Below the pieces are notes generated by a model, which saw nothing but the letters and a program-made list of their open reading frames with translations, was not told the origin of the DNA and made no database searches. Positions 11,440 to 33,763 of a stretch of DNA of 64,000 nucleotides are shown here, piece by piece. Each line of letters opens with the position of its first letter. Position 1 is the first letter of the stretch. The DNA is from Ostreococcus lucimarinus (Eukaryota): the NCBI GenBank assembly GCA_000092065.1, contig CP000583.1. One strand, 5' to 3'. The translations under genes were made by a program, and so were the position numbers.

Positions 11440-12330
11440 ATGGCGGGGTCGTCCAAACGCAAGGCGTCGGTGCTGGAGAAGACGCTGAATAAGTACCGCT
11501 CTGGGCAAAAGGCGGCATCGAAGATCATGACCGCGGCGGCGCGCGATCGCGCGGCGCTGGACGCGCGATCGGAGGCGCAGTACGCGCGCATGAAAGCCGC
11601 GGCGGAGGCGCAGAAGCTCGCGGAGGCGGCGGCGATCGCGGCGATGGAGGCGGAGGCGAAACCCGTGGAGCCGGTCAAGGTGGTGGCGACGAATCTGCTG
11701 GCGAAGCAGAAACACGCGATCGATACGCTCTTCGCGCAGCGACGACCGATGTCGAACGATGATTTGAGAGTTTTCTTGGGCTTTGATTGCAACGTCGGAC
11801 CGCTGTTCGAGTCGCTGAAGAATCACGAGAAGGTTCGATACGACGCGGCGAAGGGGCTGTTCGAGTACAGGGCGAAGCACGACGTGTTGTGCAAGGAGGA
11901 CGTGTTGGAGCTGGTGAATTCGACGCCCGATGGATTAGCGATCGATGAAATCGTCGATGCGTACGTCAAGGCAAAGGATGATGCGATCGCACTCGCGGAA
12001 GAAGACGATGCGGTGATCATGTTGACGAACACGGAGACGAAGAAGAAGGTTTTGTTTAGAAAGCAGCCCGAGTACGAAGTCGACTTGAGTGAAGATTTCG
12101 TCGGATCCTTTCACGACATAGAGATCCCCGAGTACGACGTGGACTTCGATAAGGCGTTGCGCAGAGAGGGGATCGAACCGACACCGCGTCCAGTGTACGA
12201 CTTGGGCCCAGCGCCTGAGGTGGAAAAGAAGAAGAAGAAACGCGCGGTGAACTTTGAGCGCATGAACGTCACCAACGCGCACATGCCCGAGTTGTTCAAG
12301 GCGGCGCAAGTCGACCGATTGGACGGCTAA
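11440..12330 (+). CDS. General transcription factor IIE beta subunit
   Basis: ATG at 11440 (MAGSSKRKAS). The C-terminal half (VIMLTNTETKKKVLFRKQPEYEVDLSEDF...KKKKKRAVNFERMNVTNAHM) is collinear with TFIIE-beta (…ILFFNDKSCQFSVDEEF…KKRRFKTHNEHL). The winged-helix region is similar. Confidence 0.7.
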   Translation: MAGSSKRKASVLEKTLNKYRSGQKAASKIMTAAARDRAALDARSEAQYARMKAAAEAQKLAEAAAIAAMEAEAKPVEPVKVVATNLLAKQKHAIDTLFAQRRPMSNDDLRVFLGFDCNVGPLFESLKNHEKVRYDAAKGLFEYRAKHDVLCKEDVLELVNSTPDGLAIDEIVDAYVKAKDDAIALAEEDDAVIMLTNTETKKKVLFRKQPEYEVDLSEDFVGSFHDIEIPEYDVDFDKALRREGIEPTPRPVYDLGPAPEVEKKKKKRAVNFERMNVTNAHMPELFKAAQVDRLDG

Positions 12331-12482
12331 GTGAGTATTAGCGAGGGACAGTGTAATATGAGTAGATGCTGAAACAGAGTAAAACTTGAATTGAAATCAT
12401 CAAGAGGCGCCGCGTTTTCGTGAGTCGTAAAACAAAGTAAAAGTAATCATCAGGGCGGCTTTGGGCTGCTTAAAGCGTCAAT

Positions 12483-12881
12483 TCAAGACTGACGCATGCA
12501 TTCGTTCGAGATGCCACATTTTCCGAGTGCTTTAACTTCGTCGGACTCGAAGCCATCGTACTTCTTGAGGCAATCGAGAGCGCACTCTCGACCTTCGTCG
12601 CGGCAGTCGCGAAGGCAGCGCGTCGTCATGCGGCACGTCGAATCGTGCGCGCAGTCCTTCAATTCTCGACCACAATTATGAAGGAGGCATCGTAAAACGG
12701 CTCGATTGTCATCGCTGACTTTCTTTCCTTCGCGCACGCGCGCCCACCACCCGTCCGAGCACGGTTTCCACATGTGCTTCTTGTGGTGCTTCCACCCAGC
12801 CTCAGCTGGTTGTGCCACAGCGGCAATCAAGGCGACGATGACGAGCAAGAACGCCCGAGCGCTGAGTTTCGTGTTGAACAT
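12483..12881 (-). CDS. Small secreted cysteine-rich protein (signal peptide plus about 11 Cys in 105 mature residues)
   Basis: The N-terminus MFNTKLSARAFLLVIVALIAAVAQPAEA is a canonical signal peptide. The mature part is rich in Cys, Asp and Arg (CLLHNCGRELKDCAHDSTCRMTTRCLRDCRDEGRECALDCLKKYDGFESDEVKALGKCGISNEC). It sits in a relatively AT-rich spacer. Confidence 0.55.
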   Translation of the reverse strand: MFNTKLSARAFLLVIVALIAAVAQPAEAGWKHHKKHMWKPCSDGWWARVREGKKVSDDNRAVLRCLLHNCGRELKDCAHDSTCRMTTRCLRDCRDEGRECALDCLKKYDGFESDEVKALGKCGISNECMRQS

Positions 12882-13032
12882 TGAAAATGTAAAGTTCGTT
12901 TTCTTTCGCGACGCGCGTCCGTGCGTTGAAGTGAAGTGACTACGAACGAGGGGGCTTCACATGGCATTAAACGAGGCACATGAGTGGCTGTGATTCTCTC
13001 GGCGAGTGTGAGAGCCTCGTTGGGCTTGTTGA

Positions 13033-13045
13033 TTTATAAATCGTC
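13033..13045. promoter_or_regulatory. Palindromic TATA-like element (TTTATAAAT) about 155 bp upstream of the Cys-rich protein start
   Basis: Sequence gatttataaatcg lies in an otherwise GC-rich genome. It is positioned upstream of the minus-strand ATG at 12881. Confidence 0.25.
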
Positions 13046-13197
13046 GCCGATCGCCGCGTGACGTCAACAGACGTGGGCTTTAACGATGCAATCCGAGGTC
13101 CGAGAAGCGTTGCAGATCGCGAGAGGATCGACATCGACAGTAAACCATGTGTTATTCGGTATACAAAAATGCCAAGCGCGGGCTATGATGTAAAGCT

Positions 13198-15315
13198 TTA
13201 CGGCGGAGAGATGAACGCGTGACGCATCGGCTTCACCGCGCCCAGAGGAGTTTCCGGTGGTAAATGAGAAGCGTCGATGTTCCCACTCGCCACGGCATCG
13301 GCCATAATGGCGATAGATTTGATTCCACGCGGTGCTGTTCCTTGACGCTTCGGTGTTTGCACGGTGGCGCCGTACTTGACGTTTCCTTCGGAGTGCATGA
13401 AAGCGGGCGCAGGAGCCGCCTTGACGACTGGAGCCGGTGGTACCATCTCCGCGATAGGTGCCTCGGTCGGCATGACGATTGAAGCGTTCGCAGCGTACGC
13501 TGCTTTTTCTAAATTACGCTGAGCTGTCTTCACATACTGAGTTCGCCAAATCTCTTCGTCACACGTCGCCTCGGCGGCAGCATAAGCAGCGAGACTCGTC
13601 TCGGCGCGGAGTAAAGCCTTGTTGGTCACCAAATGAGCAGCCATTTCACTGCGAAGTAATTCTTCAATCACCGAGCGTGGTGCTGATTGGTCGCACATCA
13701 AATCGAAACGCGACGTCAGCGACGACAGACTTTGTTGCATCCCGATGAGTTTATGCGCCAAAATCGCGCTCCCTTGAATGACGCGATCGTTTTCCGTGCC
13801 GTGCGACGTACCCTCGCCCTTCATCTTTGCCATTTGAATTTGCAGCTGATGCATCGCCGTCTCAGAGTTGCTCAACAGTTGCTCGAGTCGGCCGACTAAC
13901 ACTTTGTATTCCGCTGCCTCTCTCTCAGCCTTGTGCTGACAAAGTTGTGCCGCCGCAGCCGTCATGTGCAGTTCGCACGATCTTGTGATGGCACCGTGAA
14001 GCTCGTCTCGTAGGGAACCATCCGGAATCTGATCAATACTCTCGCGAGTTGCTTGCGCGATTTGTTCCTGCGCGAGCGCCGTGTCCTCATTAATTGCCCC
14101 GAGATCGAGCTCGACTTGACGAATCCCTCGAATTGGTCGAGAAGGAGACATCACTGGCGCTTGAGGCTTGGTCGTCATTCGCGAAGGCTTCACCGGCGAC
14201 ATGGGAATACCACCAACCGAAGTGAGGGCGTCGAGGAGAACACCCATGCCGGCGTGCTGGTCGTCGTCCGACGTGTGCTCGGGCGTCATTTCTCCGTGTA
14301 CACTCGACAGCGACTGACGGGCCTTCTTCCGGCTTCGATCTTTCGCGGCAAGCGTGGACTTGGGAATCGCCGTCGACATCTGCGACGGTAGCACGAAAGC
14401 TGGGACCGTCCAGTGGTTGGACAACCCCTTGCGGTTGCTTCCGCACCCGCATTCAAGCTTGTCCGCGGTGAGAAGAACGTCGTCGCAGTTGCCCTTGGTA
14501 CCGATGATCTGCACCTGGGCGAGCAGTGGGCAAAGCTCGAGCGCTTGTAGGTTGAATCGAGTGACAGTCCACAAATAGTTATCGTCGTTGCCATACCTGT
14601 TCCTGTCGAGGTTTGTTGAGTACTCGTTGCCTTCCGCGTCGGACAACTGATGACGCCTAAGTTCTTCTGGCACTCTGTGCGTACCCGAGTTCAGCGCCAC
14701 AACCTTGGTACGGCGAGTGTTGACGCTGAGTAATTGCAGAATGTTACGAGCACCATCCGTACGTTGGCTTTCAGCCATATCCAAAGCGCGGAGCGTCTGC
14801 AGAAAAGCGCTCGTCACCGATGGACACGCCTCTGTCATCTTTGGCAACTGCTTTTTAACAATCGCCGGAATAGCGTGCTCGTAGTGTTCCCAATGAAAAT
14901 TGATACGATATAAAAGTTGGTTGTTCGTCGGACGTTGCCTCGGCGTCGTCGCGTCCCTCGCCGCGTTGGGGGATTTCATCGTCGCCGGGCTCAACTTTTT
15001 ACCGCCGCTCGCGTGCGAGCCAGCGTTGGACGATTTCCCTACGCTTCTTTGCTGCGTCGACGCCGACGCCTTGAATCCCAAACCCGACTCAATCTTCATA
15101 CGTTTCGCCCCCGTCGCGCCGTTAACGTAACGCCCACCGTCATTCTCCGCATTCGAAGACCTCGACCCGCTCCTCGACATCGTCGACGTCGACGCCTCTG
15201 CCCGCGCTTCCTCCTCCTGCGTCCTCGGCCGCGTTCTCGCCACAAAATCTCCACCCTGAAGTCGGTTCATCGTCGGTTCATACTGCATTTGCCAAAAACC
15301 GTCGTCAGTCGCCAT
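13198..15315 (-). CDS. Hypothetical protein with leucine-rich-repeat-like and coiled-coil regions
   Basis: 705-aa ORF starting MATDDGFWQMQYEP. The middle has LRR-like periodicity (NILQLLSVNTRRTKVVALNSGTHRVPEEL...LQALELCPLLAQVQIIGTKGNCDDVLL). The C-terminal part is predicted coiled-coil. Confidence 0.5.
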   Translation of the reverse strand: MATDDGFWQMQYEPTMNRLQGGDFVARTRPRTQEEEARAEASTSTMSRSGSRSSNAENDGGRYVNGATGAKRMKIESGLGFKASASTQQRSVGKSSNAGSHASGGKKLSPATMKSPNAARDATTPRQRPTNNQLLYRINFHWEHYEHAIPAIVKKQLPKMTEACPSVTSAFLQTLRALDMAESQRTDGARNILQLLSVNTRRTKVVALNSGTHRVPEELRRHQLSDAEGNEYSTNLDRNRYGNDDNYLWTVTRFNLQALELCPLLAQVQIIGTKGNCDDVLLTADKLECGCGSNRKGLSNHWTVPAFVLPSQMSTAIPKSTLAAKDRSRKKARQSLSSVHGEMTPEHTSDDDQHAGMGVLLDALTSVGGIPMSPVKPSRMTTKPQAPVMSPSRPIRGIRQVELDLGAINEDTALAQEQIAQATRESIDQIPDGSLRDELHGAITRSCELHMTAAAAQLCQHKAEREAAEYKVLVGRLEQLLSNSETAMHQLQIQMAKMKGEGTSHGTENDRVIQGSAILAHKLIGMQQSLSSLTSRFDLMCDQSAPRSVIEELLRSEMAAHLVTNKALLRAETSLAAYAAAEATCDEEIWRTQYVKTAQRNLEKAAYAANASIVMPTEAPIAEMVPPAPVVKAAPAPAFMHSEGNVKYGATVQTPKRQGTAPRGIKSIAIMADAVASGNIDASHLPPETPLGAVKPMRHAFISPP

Positions 15316-15862
15316 CTACACGCGACGATGATCGCCGTCGCCGTCGTCCGGCGGTTACGCCGCCGGCGTCGATCGCGGATCGTCATCACGCCCATCTTCT
15401 TCCCCACCACCGCCCACATTCCCTTCCGTTTCGCGCGCGTTTACGAGATCACACCACCACGCACCTTCACCGGCGGTTTCCTCGCGCGAATCTCCCGCAT
15501 CACGCGCTCGCAGGGCGTCGTTCGCTCGATCGGAGTCGTCGTTTCGACACGTCGGTCGTCGTCGCGCGATGATGCCGTCGCCGTCGCGCGGTTCCGGACG
15601 CGTTTCGCGCGCGCGGGTGCGGCGCGTTCGTCTCACGACTTTCTGCTCGATTCGCGCGCGGGCGAGCGCGTTGGCGTCGTCGAGGACGTCGGGCGCGTCG
15701 TCGATTGCCGCCGACCGCCAATGCCGGAACGAAAAATTTGAATTTTGGCGGCAAAAGTGCAGAAGTGGTCAATTCGGCGGCGATCGATCGAGCGGTGCGA
15801 CGAAGGGCGAATGACGCACGCGCGACGAATGATTGACGTAGAATACAAAACGGTGAAGATGA

Positions 15863-32200: not shown

Positions 32201-33763
32201 AAGCTGATGAACATGACCGAGAAGAGAAAGTTCCAACAAGGTGAAAAACTCATCGCGATCATCTCCGACGCGGCGAGCACCGGTATTTCTCTCCAGGCGG
32301 ATAAACGTGTCCAAAATCAGCGTCGACGATGCCATATGACGCTTGAGCTTCCCTGGAGCGCTGATAAGGCAATTCAGCAGTTCGGTCGTTCTCACCGGTC
32401 GAATCAGTCGAGTGCTCCGCTCTATCGCATTCTCATGACGCCGTGCGGTGGCGAACGACGCTTCGCGTCCAGTGCAGCCAAACGTCTTCTTTCGCTCGGC
32501 GCCTTGCTCAAGGGTGATCGACGCGCGCTCGGCGCCGGCCAAAGTCTGCAAGCGTTTGACATAGATAACGCATACGGCTCTGAAGCGCTGAAGCGCATGA
32601 TTTCTGATCTCAAGCGCGACACCGATCCCATGCCGACTGTGCAGTACACGGAGGCGCAGCTTGACGCCATCATCAACATCATTCGAGGCGAGCTCGTGAA
32701 AGTCGGTCTCGCCGACGAAGACAATGGCGACGGGAGGTTTACACTCAAAGGCAACAAAACTAAAAATTCTGGTCTGAAGATCTCCACATTTTTGAATCGT
32801 CTTCTCGGGATGCCTATCGAAATGCAAGAAATTGCATTCGACTACTTTACGCAAACGTTTGAAGGCGTCATCAAGGATCATAAACAACGTGGCAAGTATG
32901 ACTCGGGCGTGACGAATATTACCGGTCAGAGCATCGTCTCAAAGCCAGAACACAACAAAGTTGTTCACAAGTGTCCGACATCTGGTGCTGAGACCAACGT
33001 TCGCTTAGTGGTCAGCGACTCCGGCGTTAAATATCGTCAAGTGTGCGCCATGATGCGCGATTACGAAGAGAATCGAGAGGCCTTGTTCGAAGGATCAAAC
33101 CAGCGTGGACTGTGTGGATTCTACATCGCGACGTACGGGACTATGGCCAAGACGAACCGACCGAACGTCTGTTACGCGCATGAAATTAGGAACATGGGCC
33201 AGCAGAATCAAAATTCGATCAAGAATCCGCAAATGCAGATCACGCGTGCGAATAAGCTCAACGCTTCAAAGATGGACCTGGACAACTTGCAGGCAAACTA
33301 CAAGAGAGTAGAACTTACCGATATTGACGGCGTGCTTCGTTTTCGTGAGCTGTGGAACTTTTGGTATGACTTCTTCAAATCCACGTGTGTGCACGGCAAA
33401 ACGTGTAAGCAGGGTGTAGGGAGGCGGATGTGCGACGCCGGGAAACGTTTCCGGAACGATCTGCTCATTTGCGGCGCCGTGTTACCGGTATGGAATCAGA
33501 TAAATGACCAATTCAAGGGTATGGTGGCCACGGAAGAAGGAACTGTTCGCGAAACTCATTTGAAAGTGATGCGCGCGCAGACCACGCTTGGCGAAAAGAT
33601 TGTCGGATTGAAGCTCGCGTCCATCGCAGTCGAAGATTTTGACGATTACGTTCGATCACTGCAAACCACGATTGAAGACAGAACCAAAGGAGGAGTTGGC
33701 CATGAACGACATGGCGGCGAAATTCACTATGACGAATATTACGATGACGACGATCTGTATTGA
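29300..33763 (+). CDS. SBNO: Strawberry notch (SBNO)-like DExH helicase-related protein
   Basis: P-loop block FFLGDGAGVGKGRQIAGLVYEHVRRGGRRVLWVSTSADLRYDAERDLNDL and DExH box FDECHKAKNL. Helicase-C-like block (IISDAASTGISLQADKR...HMTLELPWSADKAIQQFGRSHRSNQ). Conserved SBNO N-terminal region (HPDPVVETGTLAKVAPPKPTY...LSALQMECVTYACMRH). ATG at 29300. The upstream 216 codons of the ORF-track entry are an R-rich artefact. Confidence 0.8.
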   Translation: MRAAPGDDEVMRDYVQRLAARQMEARRERKPRAPRRERARVVDAARPRDEEDDARRRVDALDASGADGEGDARDAEYERYAPTHGTIAGGPHPDPVVETGTLAKVAPPKPTYEHGIRDLCDSGGLSALQMECVTYACMRHEQRLPGERNERAGFFLGDGAGVGKGRQIAGLVYEHVRRGGRRVLWVSTSADLRYDAERDLNDLNAKPKVEVIPKNTAAMPRGDLSEHLDSGVVFSTYSLLTQGTAKVKKDKYSNNDEILKMITKNSRLEQFVTWLKEDERGPLIVFDECHKAKNLYNSGGKPTKTALCVVALQLAIPDARVLYCSATGASEPRNLGYMTRLGHFGWADTFDMLQKLESAGLGALEMFACGLKATGSYLCRTLSYEQAEFELVDCPISEELKMMYNRSTELWVLFKKVDEAISKLRGMGGEEWVTANEKSAKALNRLFWATHQRFYRQMLLCAKVPELAKLARKAVTQENLAVVIGLQSTGEASLTRMADEANDEDDEDFVSSPAEMLTNYLKNNFPTTSCRASANNARLWDTVLADVVRVVNTWCSQETIVEVLGRNPLDDNVPAANAVGAAARDDDIEVVHEKGLDEVLAERLEAAKLAGNFLDLTDDDIERRARNGVNEAQIRDLERMEEANAANEQARRDRLIAEERQLAELNRRRVEEALAAAPSPSSNDENLPPPMSPPPERQALVENRQQISQSGNKRSSRSDDGSDLPPNPRQKVAGAIRDVDIIEIDLTSSDDESRDAFNSSVQKRREEFARNGQILSGAAHTMDIPAPARPDAPVASGSGMHFSRANAPDPPKPAVNALERLRRFVPADHAPPRDAPRANAGVVRVKPEPVQGDRRRAAAPVNLKDEFANADAEDSDSDGAREELSDMDEPLPDDDVENQHLVHIRALLLRAVDSLQLPPNPLDNLIALCGGHEHVAEMTGRKLHQVRQENGKIMTRKRMDDTDAANAKLMNMTEKRKFQQGEKLIAIISDAASTGISLQADKRVQNQRRRCHMTLELPWSADKAIQQFGRSHRSNQSSAPLYRILMTPCGGERRFASSAAKRLLSLGALLKGDRRALGAGQSLQAFDIDNAYGSEALKRMISDLKRDTDPMPTVQYTEAQLDAIINIIRGELVKVGLADEDNGDGRFTLKGNKTKNSGLKISTFLNRLLGMPIEMQEIAFDYFTQTFEGVIKDHKQRGKYDSGVTNITGQSIVSKPEHNKVVHKCPTSGAETNVRLVVSDSGVKYRQVCAMMRDYEENREALFEGSNQRGLCGFYIATYGTMAKTNRPNVCYAHEIRNMGQQNQNSIKNPQMQITRANKLNASKMDLDNLQANYKRVELTDIDGVLRFRELWNFWYDFFKSTCVHGKTCKQGVGRRMCDAGKRFRNDLLICGAVLPVWNQINDQFKGMVATEEGTVRETHLKVMRAQTTLGEKIVGLKLASIAVEDFDDYVRSLQTTIEDRTKGGVGHERHGGEIHYDEYYDDDDLY

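What the first reader, a model, noticed from the sequence alone, without database searches (positions are those of the whole stretch)
12483..12881. Small secreted cysteine-rich protein in an unusually AT-rich, spacer-rich pocket with a palindromic TATA element
The 132-aa ORF has a textbook signal peptide and about 11 Cys in 105 mature residues. No family was recognisable from memory. It sits in the one region of the window with long, relatively AT-rich intergenic DNA (12330-13198) and a TTTATAAAT element about 155 bp upstream. Everywhere else the genes abut within 100 bp. This is a candidate lineage-specific secreted peptide, such as a signalling, defence or adhesion molecule.
Basis: partly seen in the sequence, partly recalled or inferred. 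Interest (0 to 1): 0.5.

Follow-up and report, generated by a model that had tools for sequence, protein, structure and literature searches.

The report
Stand-alone VDE-type cysteine-rich domain protein
The small ORF is a real, conserved gene of the picoalga Ostreococcus lucimarinus whose product is a signal peptide, a tryptophan/lysine/histidine-rich stretch and one copy of the ten-cysteine helical module known from the N-terminus of violaxanthin de-epoxidase, with no enzyme part attached; it is a modestly interesting domain-only variant, and its AT-rich setting and TATA element are ordinary.

Summary
The ORF at 12483-12881 (-) is real. It is identical to O. lucimarinus CCE9901 XP_001417082.1. 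It is under purifying selection: 9 of 9 differences between strains are synonymous, and dN/dS against other clades is 0.1-0.2. It has a Sec-type signal peptide and 11 Cys.

It is not family-less. Residues 63-129 match Pfam PF07137 above the curated cut-off, but only profile positions 3-68 of 242. That stretch is the 10-Cys N-terminal domain of violaxanthin de-epoxidase (VDE/VDL/VDR). There is no lipocalin barrel and no Glu-rich tail, so the protein cannot be a de-epoxidase.

Orthologs occur in O. tauri, in other apparent Ostreococcus clades, and in contigs that look like Bathycoccus (~50% GC) and Micromonas (68-71% GC). The same module forms tandem arrays in large secreted proteins, one of them from a Myxococcota MAG.

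The predicted fold is all-helical and has no PDB match.

The "unique AT-rich, spacer-rich pocket" is not supported. The TATA palindrome is strain-specific. A paired CATGTG motif is conserved instead.

Most likely it is a non-catalytic, disulfide-locked binding module sent into an oxidising compartment. I favour the secretory route; the thylakoid lumen is not excluded.

This is a new variant of a known domain family, of moderate to low interest.

The parts
12483..12881 (-). Complete single-exon CDS, 132 codons plus a TGA stop. Identical to O. lucimarinus CCE9901 XP_001417082.1 / ABO95375.1 / UniRef A4RV60.
   Evidence: establish identity to P0012. In one search, 9 of 9 nucleotide differences from strain contigs L001/L004 are synonymous third-position changes. 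In one search, dN/dS is 0.10-0.24 against other clades.
12798..12881 (-). Predicted cleavable Sec-type signal peptide, residues 1-28 (MFNTKLSARAFLLVIVALIAAVAQPAEA | G).
   Evidence: Hydrophobicity and the -3/-1 Ala rule. The n/h/c architecture and the invariant Ala at -1 are conserved in the aligned orthologs. No SignalP or TargetP was available, so this is an inference from sequence.
12696..12797 (-). Basic Trp/Lys/His-rich segment, residues 29-62 (pI about 10). It contains the invariant W30, W38 and P40-C41-S42-x-G44-W45-W46. Cys41 is the 11th, odd cysteine.
   Evidence: Invariant columns and composition. The AF2 model has low confidence here. The Micromonas-like homologs have a much longer W/K/H-rich and (CDD)n-containing version.
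12495..12695 (-). VDE-type ten-cysteine helical module, residues 63-129. Framework: C-x4-C-x6-C-x5-C-x5-C-x3-C-x6-C-x3-C-x17-C-x5-C.
   Evidence: Pfam PF07137 at E = 2.5e-8, 34.1 bits against a 25.7-bit cut-off, matching profile positions 3-68 of 242 only. The Cys framework is the same as in VDR-like, VDL-like and VDE sequences and in tandem-repeat proteins. BLASTP gives 38% identity, E = 4e-14, to the Cys-rich region of a VDR-like protein. AF2 gives six helices with pLDDT 76-83 in the core.
12958..12982 (-). Pair of same-sense CATGTG (E-box-like) motifs, 77-101 bp upstream of the ATG. Candidate conserved cis-regulatory element.
   Evidence: It is the only CATGTG-N8-30-CATGTG in the window, against 0.04 expected. 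Doublets or triplets of CATGTG lie at similar positions upstream of the orthologs in L005, L007 and L008. L009 and L011 carry degenerate versions.
13032..13041 (.). A possible TATA box specific to O. lucimarinus-type strains.
   Evidence: Unique in the window. Kept in L001 despite about 7% divergence of the spacer. Absent upstream of the orthologs in L005, L007, L008 and L011.
12882..13197 (.). 316-bp 5' spacer (50.6% GC) between the stop of the upstream 705-aa gene (13198-15315, minus strand) and this ATG. It must hold that gene's 3' end as well as this gene's promoter and 5' UTR.
   Evidence: No Rfam match.
12331..12482 (.). 152-bp convergent 3' spacer (42% GC) shared with the TFIIE-beta gene, which ends at 12330 on the plus strand. 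It leaves no room for a further exon such as a lipocalin domain.
   Evidence: TFIIE_beta calls in L001-L004. The same convergent arrangement occurs in L005, L006 and L008.

Best explanation
This is a real nuclear gene of Ostreococcus lucimarinus. Its orthologs sit in the same place in other Ostreococcus-type sequences, next to TFIIE-beta, including O. tauri chromosome 3.

The precursor has three parts:
- a 28-residue Sec-type signal peptide;
- a basic Trp/Lys/His-rich segment with one invariant extra cysteine (PCSDGWW);

The lipocalin barrel, which carries the VDE catalytic residues, and the acidic tail are absent. The protein therefore cannot de-epoxidise xanthophylls.

Proposed mechanism (inferred, not shown):
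- The signal peptide takes the protein across a membrane into an oxidising compartment.
- The ten cysteines form five intradomain disulfides there. By homology with the AlphaFold-based pairing published for A. thaliana VDE, these would be C65-C128, C70-C122, C77-C83, C89-C104 and C93-C100.
- The resulting rigid helical knob acts as a non-catalytic binding module.
- The cationic Trp/Lys/His-rich N-terminal segment holds it at a membrane or polyanionic surface.
- The odd Cys41 is available for an intermolecular disulfide or for metal ligation.

The n-region before the hydrophobic core is only 9 residues long, which leaves no room for a stromal transit peptide. I therefore favour entry into the ER and the secretory route (cell surface, extracellular space or endomembrane lumen) over the thylakoid lumen.
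For: Shown:
- The ORF and its Cys content.
- Identity to XP_001417082.1.
- Purifying selection: 9 of 9 synonymous differences between strains, and dN/dS of 0.10-0.24.
- A PF07137 match above the curated cut-off, restricted to profile positions 3-68 of 242.
- A Cys spacing of 5,7,6,6,4,7,4,18,6. VDR-like proteins have 5,7,6,6,4,7,4,15,7. A. thaliana VDE has C9, C14, C21, C27, C33, C37, C46, C50, C65, C72 (numbering confirmed in PMC13181403).
- BLASTP E = 4e-14 to the Cys-rich region of a VDR-like protein, and 9e-8 to the A. thaliana VDE N-terminus. That sequence was recalled from memory and agrees with the published numbering.
- The protein ends 4 residues after the last Cys in all aligned Ostreococcus and ~50% GC orthologs except P0010 (which ends after 3), and a convergent gene lies 152 bp away.
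- The AF2 model is all-helical, with pLDDT 76-83 in the domain.
- The module also occurs as 2-12 tandem copies in large proteins that carry Somatomedin_B, LNR or Dicty_CTDC domains. Two of these start with lipoprotein-type signal peptides, and one comes from a Myxococcota MAG. The module is therefore used as an extracellular building block outside plastids.
- Coesel et al. 2008 had already reported the Cys-rich domain in non-photosynthetic protists (PMC2483416).
- The signal-peptide architecture is conserved.
- Both candidate O. tauri gene IDs at the syntenic position (ostta03g05330 and ostta03g05340) appear in a published table of rhythmically expressed genes.
Against: - No localisation predictor or experiment was available.
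- Every characterised carrier of this domain in photosynthetic eukaryotes (VDE, VDL, VDR) is a plastid or thylakoid-lumen protein (PMC13181403).
- The domain is most similar to the VDR-like type.
- The Micromonas-like homologs have longer (14-19 aa or more) Ser/Thr/Arg-rich n-regions that could be short transit peptides.
- The cleavage motif always has Ala at -1, which also fits the thylakoid processing peptidase.
- No ligand, partner or disulfide map is known.
- The mapping of the O. tauri gene ID rests on synteny alone.
- The AF2 confidence is only moderate (mean pLDDT 71), and the N-terminal segment is not modelled with confidence.
Confidence: 0.6

Rival explanations
1. Thylakoid-lumen accessory. 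The free-standing Cys-rich module is targeted to the lumen. There it acts in trans with xanthophyll-cycle or carotenoid enzymes (VDE, VDR) or with the membrane. It could be a pH-sensitive (His-rich), redox-sensitive (disulfide) regulator or a membrane-docking factor.
For: - In photosynthetic eukaryotes the domain is known only from the VDE/VDL/VDR family, and VDE acts on the lumenal side of the thylakoids. The domain is essential for VDE activity, although its role is not understood.
- The closest lipocalin-bearing relatives are VDR-like.
- The His/Lys/Trp-rich segment would gain charge at lumenal pH under high light.
- Ala at -1 is invariant, as at thylakoid processing sites.
- The Micromonas-like homologs have longer hydroxylated, Arg-rich n-regions.
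Against: - In Ostreococcus only 9-12 residues precede the hydrophobic core, which leaves no recognisable stromal-targeting part.
- The same module is common in clearly extracellular bacterial and protist proteins.
- Published reviews state that VDE, VDL and VDR all keep their own 10-Cys domain, so no complementation in trans is obviously needed.
- I did not retrieve the Ostreococcus VDE or VDR sequences to compare presequences.
Confidence: 0.25
2. Secreted membrane-active defence protein, analogous to puroindolines. The Trp/Lys-rich cationic N-terminus inserts into foreign (bacterial or viral) membranes, and the disulfide-rich helical domain provides stability.
For: - Mature N-termini such as GWKHHKKHMWK (this window) and FKWWKWK, FKWRWWKWK and FKWKWWKWN (Micromonas-like homologs) resemble Trp-rich antimicrobial motifs in composition.
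- From my own knowledge, puroindoline-a carries a WRWWKWWK motif in a 10-Cys helical secreted protein.
- The mature protein is small and basic (pI 8.7) and has a signal peptide.
Against: - This is analogy only. There is no Pfam hit to LTP, 2S-albumin or puroindoline families, and the Cys framework is different.
- The gene sits in a conserved housekeeping neighbourhood.
- dN/dS is 0.1-0.2, with no sign of the diversifying selection typical of defence effectors.
- No homolog was found in viral contigs, and there is no evidence of induction.
Confidence: 0.12
3. Metal-handling protein. The His-rich, Cys-containing N-terminal segment binds Cu, Zn or Ni in the secretory pathway or the lumen. The segment is HHKKHM...C in Ostreococcus. 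In the Micromonas-like forms it is HGHHGGHH, HHHHH and (CDD)n-C, which contains CxxC repeats.
For: His is always present, at 1-4 residues in the Ostreococcus-type sequences and in long His/Gly runs plus C-D-D-C repeats in the Micromonas-like homologs.
Against: - His positions are not conserved. Only the composition is.
- No match to any metal-binding family.
- The Foldseek hits to copper-storage proteins are non-significant, with E > 6.
Confidence: 0.08
4. Non-functional remnant or artefact: a chance ORF in GC-rich DNA, or the decayed 5' fragment of a former VDE-family gene.
For: - GC-rich genomes produce many spurious ORFs, and many are visible.
- The Pfam match covers only the first quarter of the VDE model.
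Against: - All 9 differences between strains are synonymous, and dN/dS is well below 1.
- Collinear orthologs, nearly all ending at the same alignment column, occur in at least five clades and in O. tauri.
- The protein has its own conserved signal peptide and a family-specific N-terminal motif.
- The GC3 > GC1 > GC2 coding pattern is present.
Confidence: 0.02

Closest known systems
[quoted passage not shown]
   Same: - Ten cysteines with near-identical spacing.
- 33-38% identity over 60-63 residues in the pairwise BLASTP alignments of the ~65-residue module.
- Predicted all-helical.
- Presumably five disulfides.
- A hydrophobic export signal lies before it.
   Different: - No lipocalin barrel, so the catalytic Asp177 and Tyr198 equivalents are missing.
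- No Glu-rich C-terminus and no DUF3479 extension.
- The whole mature protein is about 104 residues.
- It has a Trp/Lys/His-rich segment with an extra Cys that was not seen in the VDE-family sequences examined here.
- The presequence is a plain 28-residue signal peptide, not an obvious bipartite lumen-targeting sequence.
Multi-repeat secreted proteins built from the same module: a Myxococcota MAG protein MEC9072996.1 (P0070) and metagenomic proteins P0069 and P0073-P0081. Also the protist multi-domain proteins noted by Coesel et al. 2008.
   Same: The same 10-Cys framework, in some repeats with exactly the spacing 5,7,6,6,4,7,4,18,6. The module is used without any lipocalin and behind a secretion signal.
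   Different: - Those proteins carry 2-12 tandem copies.
- They are highly acidic.
- They are combined with Somatomedin_B, LNR or Dicty_CTDC domains.
- Two of them (P0069, P0070) start with lipoprotein-type signal peptides.
- The Ostreococcus protein has a single copy, near-neutral in the domain and basic overall.
Puroindolines, nsLTP and 2S-albumin type small helical disulfide-rich plant proteins (analogy only, from my own knowledge)
   Same: A small, secreted, helical protein of about 10 Cys with a Trp/Lys-rich membrane-interacting motif.
   Different: - No sequence or profile similarity.
- A different Cys framework, without the CC or CxC motifs.
- The Trp-rich segment is N-terminal rather than in an internal loop.

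Membership tests
Violaxanthin de-epoxidase family enzymes (VDE/VDL/VDR) | N-terminal domain of about 80 residues with ten conserved cysteines | tested here: met
   PF07137 scores 34.1 bits against a 25.7-bit cut-off, matching residues 64-129 to profile positions 3-68. All ten Cys are in register. BLASTP to a VDR-like protein gives E = 4e-14.
Violaxanthin de-epoxidase family enzymes (VDE/VDL/VDR) | Central lipocalin beta-barrel carrying the catalytic residues (Asp177 or Glu, and Tyr198 in A. thaliana VDE numbering) | tested here: not met
   The Pfam alignment stops at profile position 68 of 242. The protein ends 4 residues after the tenth Cys. The model has helices only. The convergent TFIIE-beta gene 152 bp downstream leaves no room for another exon.
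Violaxanthin de-epoxidase family enzymes (VDE/VDL/VDR) | C-terminal Glu-rich domain (VDE proper) | tested here: not met
   The protein sequence ends ...NECMRQS.
Violaxanthin de-epoxidase family enzymes (VDE/VDL/VDR) | Bipartite chloroplast / thylakoid-lumen targeting presequence | tested here: inconclusive
   Only 9 residues precede the hydrophobic core in this protein. The Micromonas-like homologs have 14-19 or more. No TargetP or PredAlgo was available, and no Ostreococcus lumenal reference proteins were compared.
VDE-type Cys-rich module as an independent, mobile extracellular or lumenal domain | The framework C-x4-C-x6-C-x5-C-x5-C-x3-C-x(4-11)-C-x3-C-x(14-18)-C-x(4-6)-C, occurring without a lipocalin and behind an export signal | tested here: met
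   The regex and alignment find it in this window's protein, in nine stand-alone Mamiellales-type homologs and in 58 repeats of 10 multi-repeat proteins. Signal or lipoprotein peptides are visible.
   No Pfam hit other than PF07137 even at E <= 10. The module has 10 Cys over 64 residues, and the model has six helices and no strands.
Any fold with a solved structure | Significant sequence or structural match in the PDB | tested here: not met
   [not shown]

The most novel reading that the evidence does not exclude
The protein is a naturally free-standing version of the enigmatic but essential Cys-rich domain of VDE. It resides in the thylakoid lumen of Mamiellales and acts in trans as a pH- and redox-responsive regulator or membrane-docking partner of xanthophyll-cycle or carotenoid enzymes. 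If so, it would provide the first system in which the function of this domain can be studied apart from the lipocalin catalytic domain.
Probability: 0.15. Interest if true: 0.65.

Novelty: new variant of a known kind. Interest (0 to 1): 0.35.

Why it matters
[quoted passage not shown] Its actual role is unknown, and no experimental structure covers it.

A conserved, expressed protein of about 12 kDa that consists essentially of this domain would be useful in two ways:
- It is a convenient object for determining the fold, the disulfide map and the binding partners of the module.
- It offers a way to ask whether the module is a generic extracellular or lumenal binding unit that was fused to a lipocalin to create VDE.

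The automatic name "VDE lipocalin domain-containing protein" for this protein and its orthologs is misleading. Such sequences should not be used as lipocalins in phylogenies.

Beyond that, this is an ordinary small gene in an ordinary piece of a compact green-algal genome.

Tried and rejected
- ShK, EGF or knottin folds and other small Cys-rich families: no Pfam support.
- Solved-structure relatives: none by sequence or by fold. The AFDB library was unavailable.
- Viral or prasinovirus origin or a viral homolog: the viral-contig scan found no relative, and BFVD fold hits are all at E > 2.
- An RNA gene or other repeat element hidden in the spacers: no Rfam hit at E <= 1 and only trivial repeats.
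- First exon of a larger VDE-like gene: rejected because the stop codon is conserved, the convergent neighbour is close and the orthologs are collinear.
- The TATA palindrome as a conserved promoter feature: rejected, as it is found only in O. lucimarinus-type contigs.
- A uniquely AT-rich or long spacer: rejected.
- Literature look-up by accession numbers: no paper mentions the protein. A secretome search returned nothing on Ostreococcus. A CATGTG literature search returned nothing on Ostreococcus.
- Naming the O. tauri gene ID precisely: I could only narrow it to ostta03g05330 or ostta03g05340 by synteny.
- I ran no further search on retrieving the Ostreococcus VDE or VDR.

Full report
**Observation**

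The minus-strand ORF at 12483..12881 exists as described. It starts with ATG, encodes 132 codons and ends with TGA. It has 11 cysteines, at positions 41, 65, 70, 77, 83, 89, 93, 100, 104, 122 and 128. All lie in the 104-residue part that follows a textbook n/h/c signal peptide, MFNTKLSAR-AFLLVIVALIAAVA-QPAEA|G.

The protein is identical to the annotated "predicted protein" XP_001417082.1 / ABO95375.1 of Ostreococcus lucimarinus CCE9901. UniRef names it "VDE lipocalin domain-containing protein". This identifies the window's organism. The window GC of 60.7% fits that species.

**Is it a gene?**

Metagenomic contigs of closely related strains (L001, L004) differ from the window at 9 positions in the ORF. 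All 9 are synonymous third-position changes, while the flanking spacers carry about 6-7% differences including indels.

Against more distant clades dN/dS is 0.10-0.24. The least saturated pair, L008 against L011, has dS 0.56 and dN/dS 0.19.

Orthologs of 134-144 aa are collinear from the start codon to a stop at almost the same alignment column. They keep the signal-peptide architecture and 38 invariant columns. The set includes O. tauri Q01BY0 / XP_003078437.1.

The gene order is also kept in the contigs long enough to show it: Nop53, a 705-aa protein, this gene, convergent TFIIE-beta, a ~345-aa protein, coatomer-delta, a CemA-like protein.

In O. tauri the same block is ostta03g05290-05380. 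The ortholog must be ostta03g05330 or ostta03g05340, and both IDs are listed in Table S1 ("rhythmic genes") of PMC12216367. This is indirect evidence of transcription, because the ID mapping rests on synteny.

A chance ORF, a pseudogene fragment and the first exon of a larger gene are all excluded for practical purposes. The convergent TFIIE-beta stop codon is only 152 bp from this gene's stop.

**What the protein is**

Pfam PF07137 ("VDE lipocalin domain") matches at E = 2.5e-8, with 34.1 bits against a 25.7-bit cut-off. The match covers only residues 64-129 against profile positions 3-68 of 242. That part of the model is not the lipocalin. [quoted passage not shown]

The ten cysteines C65...C128 have spacings of 5,7,6,6,4,7,4,18,6. 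VDR-like proteins have 5,7,6,6,4,7,4,15,7. A. thaliana VDE has C9, C14, C21, C27, C33, C37, C46, C50, C65, C72 (numbering and AlphaFold-based pairing from PMC13181403).

Pairwise BLASTP gives 38% identity (E = 4e-14) to the Cys-rich region of a VDR-like protein, P0085. It gives 33% identity (E = 9e-8) to the A. thaliana VDE N-terminus.

By homology the disulfides would be C65-C128, C70-C122, C77-C83, C89-C104 and C93-C100. This pairing is inferred.

The lipocalin barrel, with the catalytic Asp177/Tyr198 equivalents, and the Glu-rich tail are absent. The protein is therefore not a de-epoxidase and fails membership of the VDE enzyme family, although it shares one of its domains.

An AlphaFold2 model of residues 40-132 has mean pLDDT 71, and 76-83 in the core. 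It is a six-helix bundle.

It has no significant match in the PDB:
- Sequence searches gave nothing credible.
- Foldseek found nothing at E <= 0.001.
- The AFDB library was not available.

**Family and wider distribution**

An exhaustive profile search of 1.84 billion cluster representatives found only 36 proteins at E <= 1e-3. The close family is small:
- Ostreococcus O. lucimarinus and O. tauri plus several unnamed metagenomic clades with 55-61% GC loci.
- A ~50% GC form, which looks like Bathycoccus (loci L009, L010).
- A more distant group of 206-280 aa from 68-71% GC contigs, which looks like Micromonas. One subgroup (P0107-P0109) carries a read-through GT...AG intron.

The taxon assignments for the last two groups rest on GC content and gene structure only.

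The Ostreococcus and Micromonas-like groups share the plan of a signal peptide ending in Ala, a Trp/Lys/His-rich segment and a C-terminal 10-Cys module; the ~50% GC form follows it with Ala at -1, from one complete sequence. In the long forms the middle segment is expanded into FKWWKWK-type, His/Gly-rich and (CDD)n-C stretches.

Outside this family the same module appears in two contexts:
- VDR-like and VDL-like lipocalin proteins.
- As 2-12 tandem copies in large acidic proteins that carry Somatomedin_B, LNR or Dicty_CTDC domains. Two of these (P0069, P0070) start with lipoprotein-type signal peptides. One of them, P0070, is annotated as coming from a Myxococcota MAG.

Coesel et al. 2008 had already found the Cys-rich domain in non-photosynthetic protists and proposed that VDE arose by fusing it to a lipocalin. 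They found none in 915 prokaryotic genomes (PMC2483416).

Recent reviews describe VDE, VDL and VDR as always keeping all three domains and all ten Cys. They do not mention a stand-alone form in green algae (PMC13181403). No paper in the library cites this protein's accessions.

**Genomic context claims**

The two spacers are 152 bp (42% GC, convergent 3' ends) and 316 bp (51% GC, holding the upstream gene's 3' end plus this gene's promoter).

A rough GC3-based gene map of the window shows many spacers of 130-230 bp with 36-53% GC. It also shows a divergent spacer of at least 458 bp between the CemA-like and coatomer-delta genes. The lowest-GC stretches of the window are inside a long ORF near 32.7 kb. 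The "one AT-rich, spacer-rich pocket" is therefore not a real anomaly.

The palindrome ATTTATAAAT (13032-13041) is unique in the window. TATAAA overall is at chance level. The palindrome is present only in O. lucimarinus-type contigs and not upstream of the orthologs in other clades.

What is conserved is a pair of same-sense CATGTG motifs 77-101 bp upstream of the ATG (12958-12982). It is the only such pair in 64 kb, against 0.04 expected. Doublets or triplets occur at similar positions in L005, L007 and L008, and degenerate copies in L009 and L011. I found no literature on this motif in Ostreococcus.

**Mechanism**

The following are shown: the export signal as an architecture, the ten-Cys VDE-type module, the absence of any catalytic domain, the conservation, and the use of the module in extracellular proteins elsewhere.

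The following are inferred:
- The protein is translocated into an oxidising compartment.
- It forms five disulfides there and works as a rigid, non-catalytic binding unit.
- The cationic Trp/Lys/His-rich N-terminal segment (pI about 10, four invariant Trp) tethers it to a membrane or anionic surface.
- The odd Cys41 (invariant PCSDGWW) is free for a dimerising disulfide or for metal ligation.

I favour the ER and secretory route at about 0.6, for two reasons. Only 9-12 residues precede the hydrophobic core in the Ostreococcus sequences, and the module is widely used outside plastids.

The thylakoid lumen remains a serious alternative at about 0.25, for these reasons:
- All characterised plant and algal carriers of the domain are plastid or lumenal proteins.
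- The domain is closest to the VDR-like type.
- The His-rich segment would be pH-responsive in the lumen.
- The Micromonas-like presequences are longer and hydroxylated.

The puroindoline-like defence role and the metal-handling role are compositional analogies only.

**Verdict**

This is a genuine, already annotated but uncharacterised gene. It is a lipocalin-less, single-copy variant of the VDE Cys-rich domain family that appears restricted to Mamiellales-type algae.

The claims of "no family" and of an unusual genomic pocket are not.

Interest is moderate to low. Its main value is as a handle on a domain whose function and structure are unknown, and as a correction of a misleading automatic annotation.

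Noticed in passing
window 12958-12982 (-); L005, L007, L008, L009, L011 upstream of the orthologous ATG: A pair of same-sense CATGTG (E-box-like) motifs lies 77-101 bp upstream of the start codon. It is unique in the 64-kb window (expected 0.04). It recurs as doublets or triplets in the orthologous promoters of other clades, whereas the TATA palindrome does not. This is probably the real conserved cis-element of the gene. The factor that binds it is unknown.
   Followed up: partly
proteins P0069-P0081 (not in the window): The VDE-type 10-Cys module occurs as 2-12 tandem repeats in large acidic proteins together with Somatomedin_B, LNR and Dicty_CTDC domains. Two of them (P0069, P0070) start with lipoprotein-type signal peptides. 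One, P0070, is annotated as coming from a Myxococcota MAG (MEC9072996.1). A 2008 survey had found the domain in no prokaryote, so its origin may need revisiting.
   Followed up: partly
L012 5001-5831; proteins P0102-P0109: Homologs from GC-rich (68-71%) contigs, which look like Micromonas, are 206-280 aa long. They have an expanded middle region with FKWWKWK-type, His/Gly-rich and C-D-D-C repeat stretches. P0107-P0109 contain a read-through GT...AG intron inside the Cys-rich domain, between the fifth and sixth Cys. These loci are not syntenic with TFIIE-beta.
   Followed up: partly
database annotation of XP_001417082.1 / UniRef A4RV60: The automatic name "VDE lipocalin domain-containing protein" is a misnomer, because only the Cys-rich part of PF07137 is matched. 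The "Bathycoccus prasinos lipocalin domain" used as an outgroup in the trees of PMC13181403 might be an ortholog of this protein. I could not check this.
   Followed up: no
protein P0001 and cluster members P0013-P0024: Natural O. lucimarinus-type populations carry in-frame length variants of the protein, for example a 2-residue Ala-Gly insertion after DDNR, as well as 121-137 aa gene calls. These are consistent with a coding region that tolerates small indels in the linker.
   Followed up: no
window 15328-15741 (+) and L002 2150-2554 / L003 2141-2554: Some metagenome annotations call a ~134-138 aa ORF between the 705-aa gene and the Nop53 gene, on the opposite strand. It has a coding-like GC3 pattern. 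O. tauri has enough gene IDs (05350/05360) to accommodate it. Its reality and function are unknown.
   Followed up: no
window 12352-12356 (+): TGTAA lies about 22 nt after the TFIIE-beta stop codon. Similar TGTAA(T)AA motifs follow the stop of the upstream 705-aa gene in L007, L008 and L011. This fits the green-algal UGUAA polyadenylation signal, which I know from my own background and did not test. It suggests that much of the AT-richness of these spacers is 3'-end signal.
   Followed up: no
window ~32600-33700: The lowest-GC stretch of the whole window (about 46-49% in 300-nt windows) lies inside the long plus-strand ORF 28652/29300-33763, not in an intergenic region.
   Followed up: no
[not shown]
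   Followed up: no
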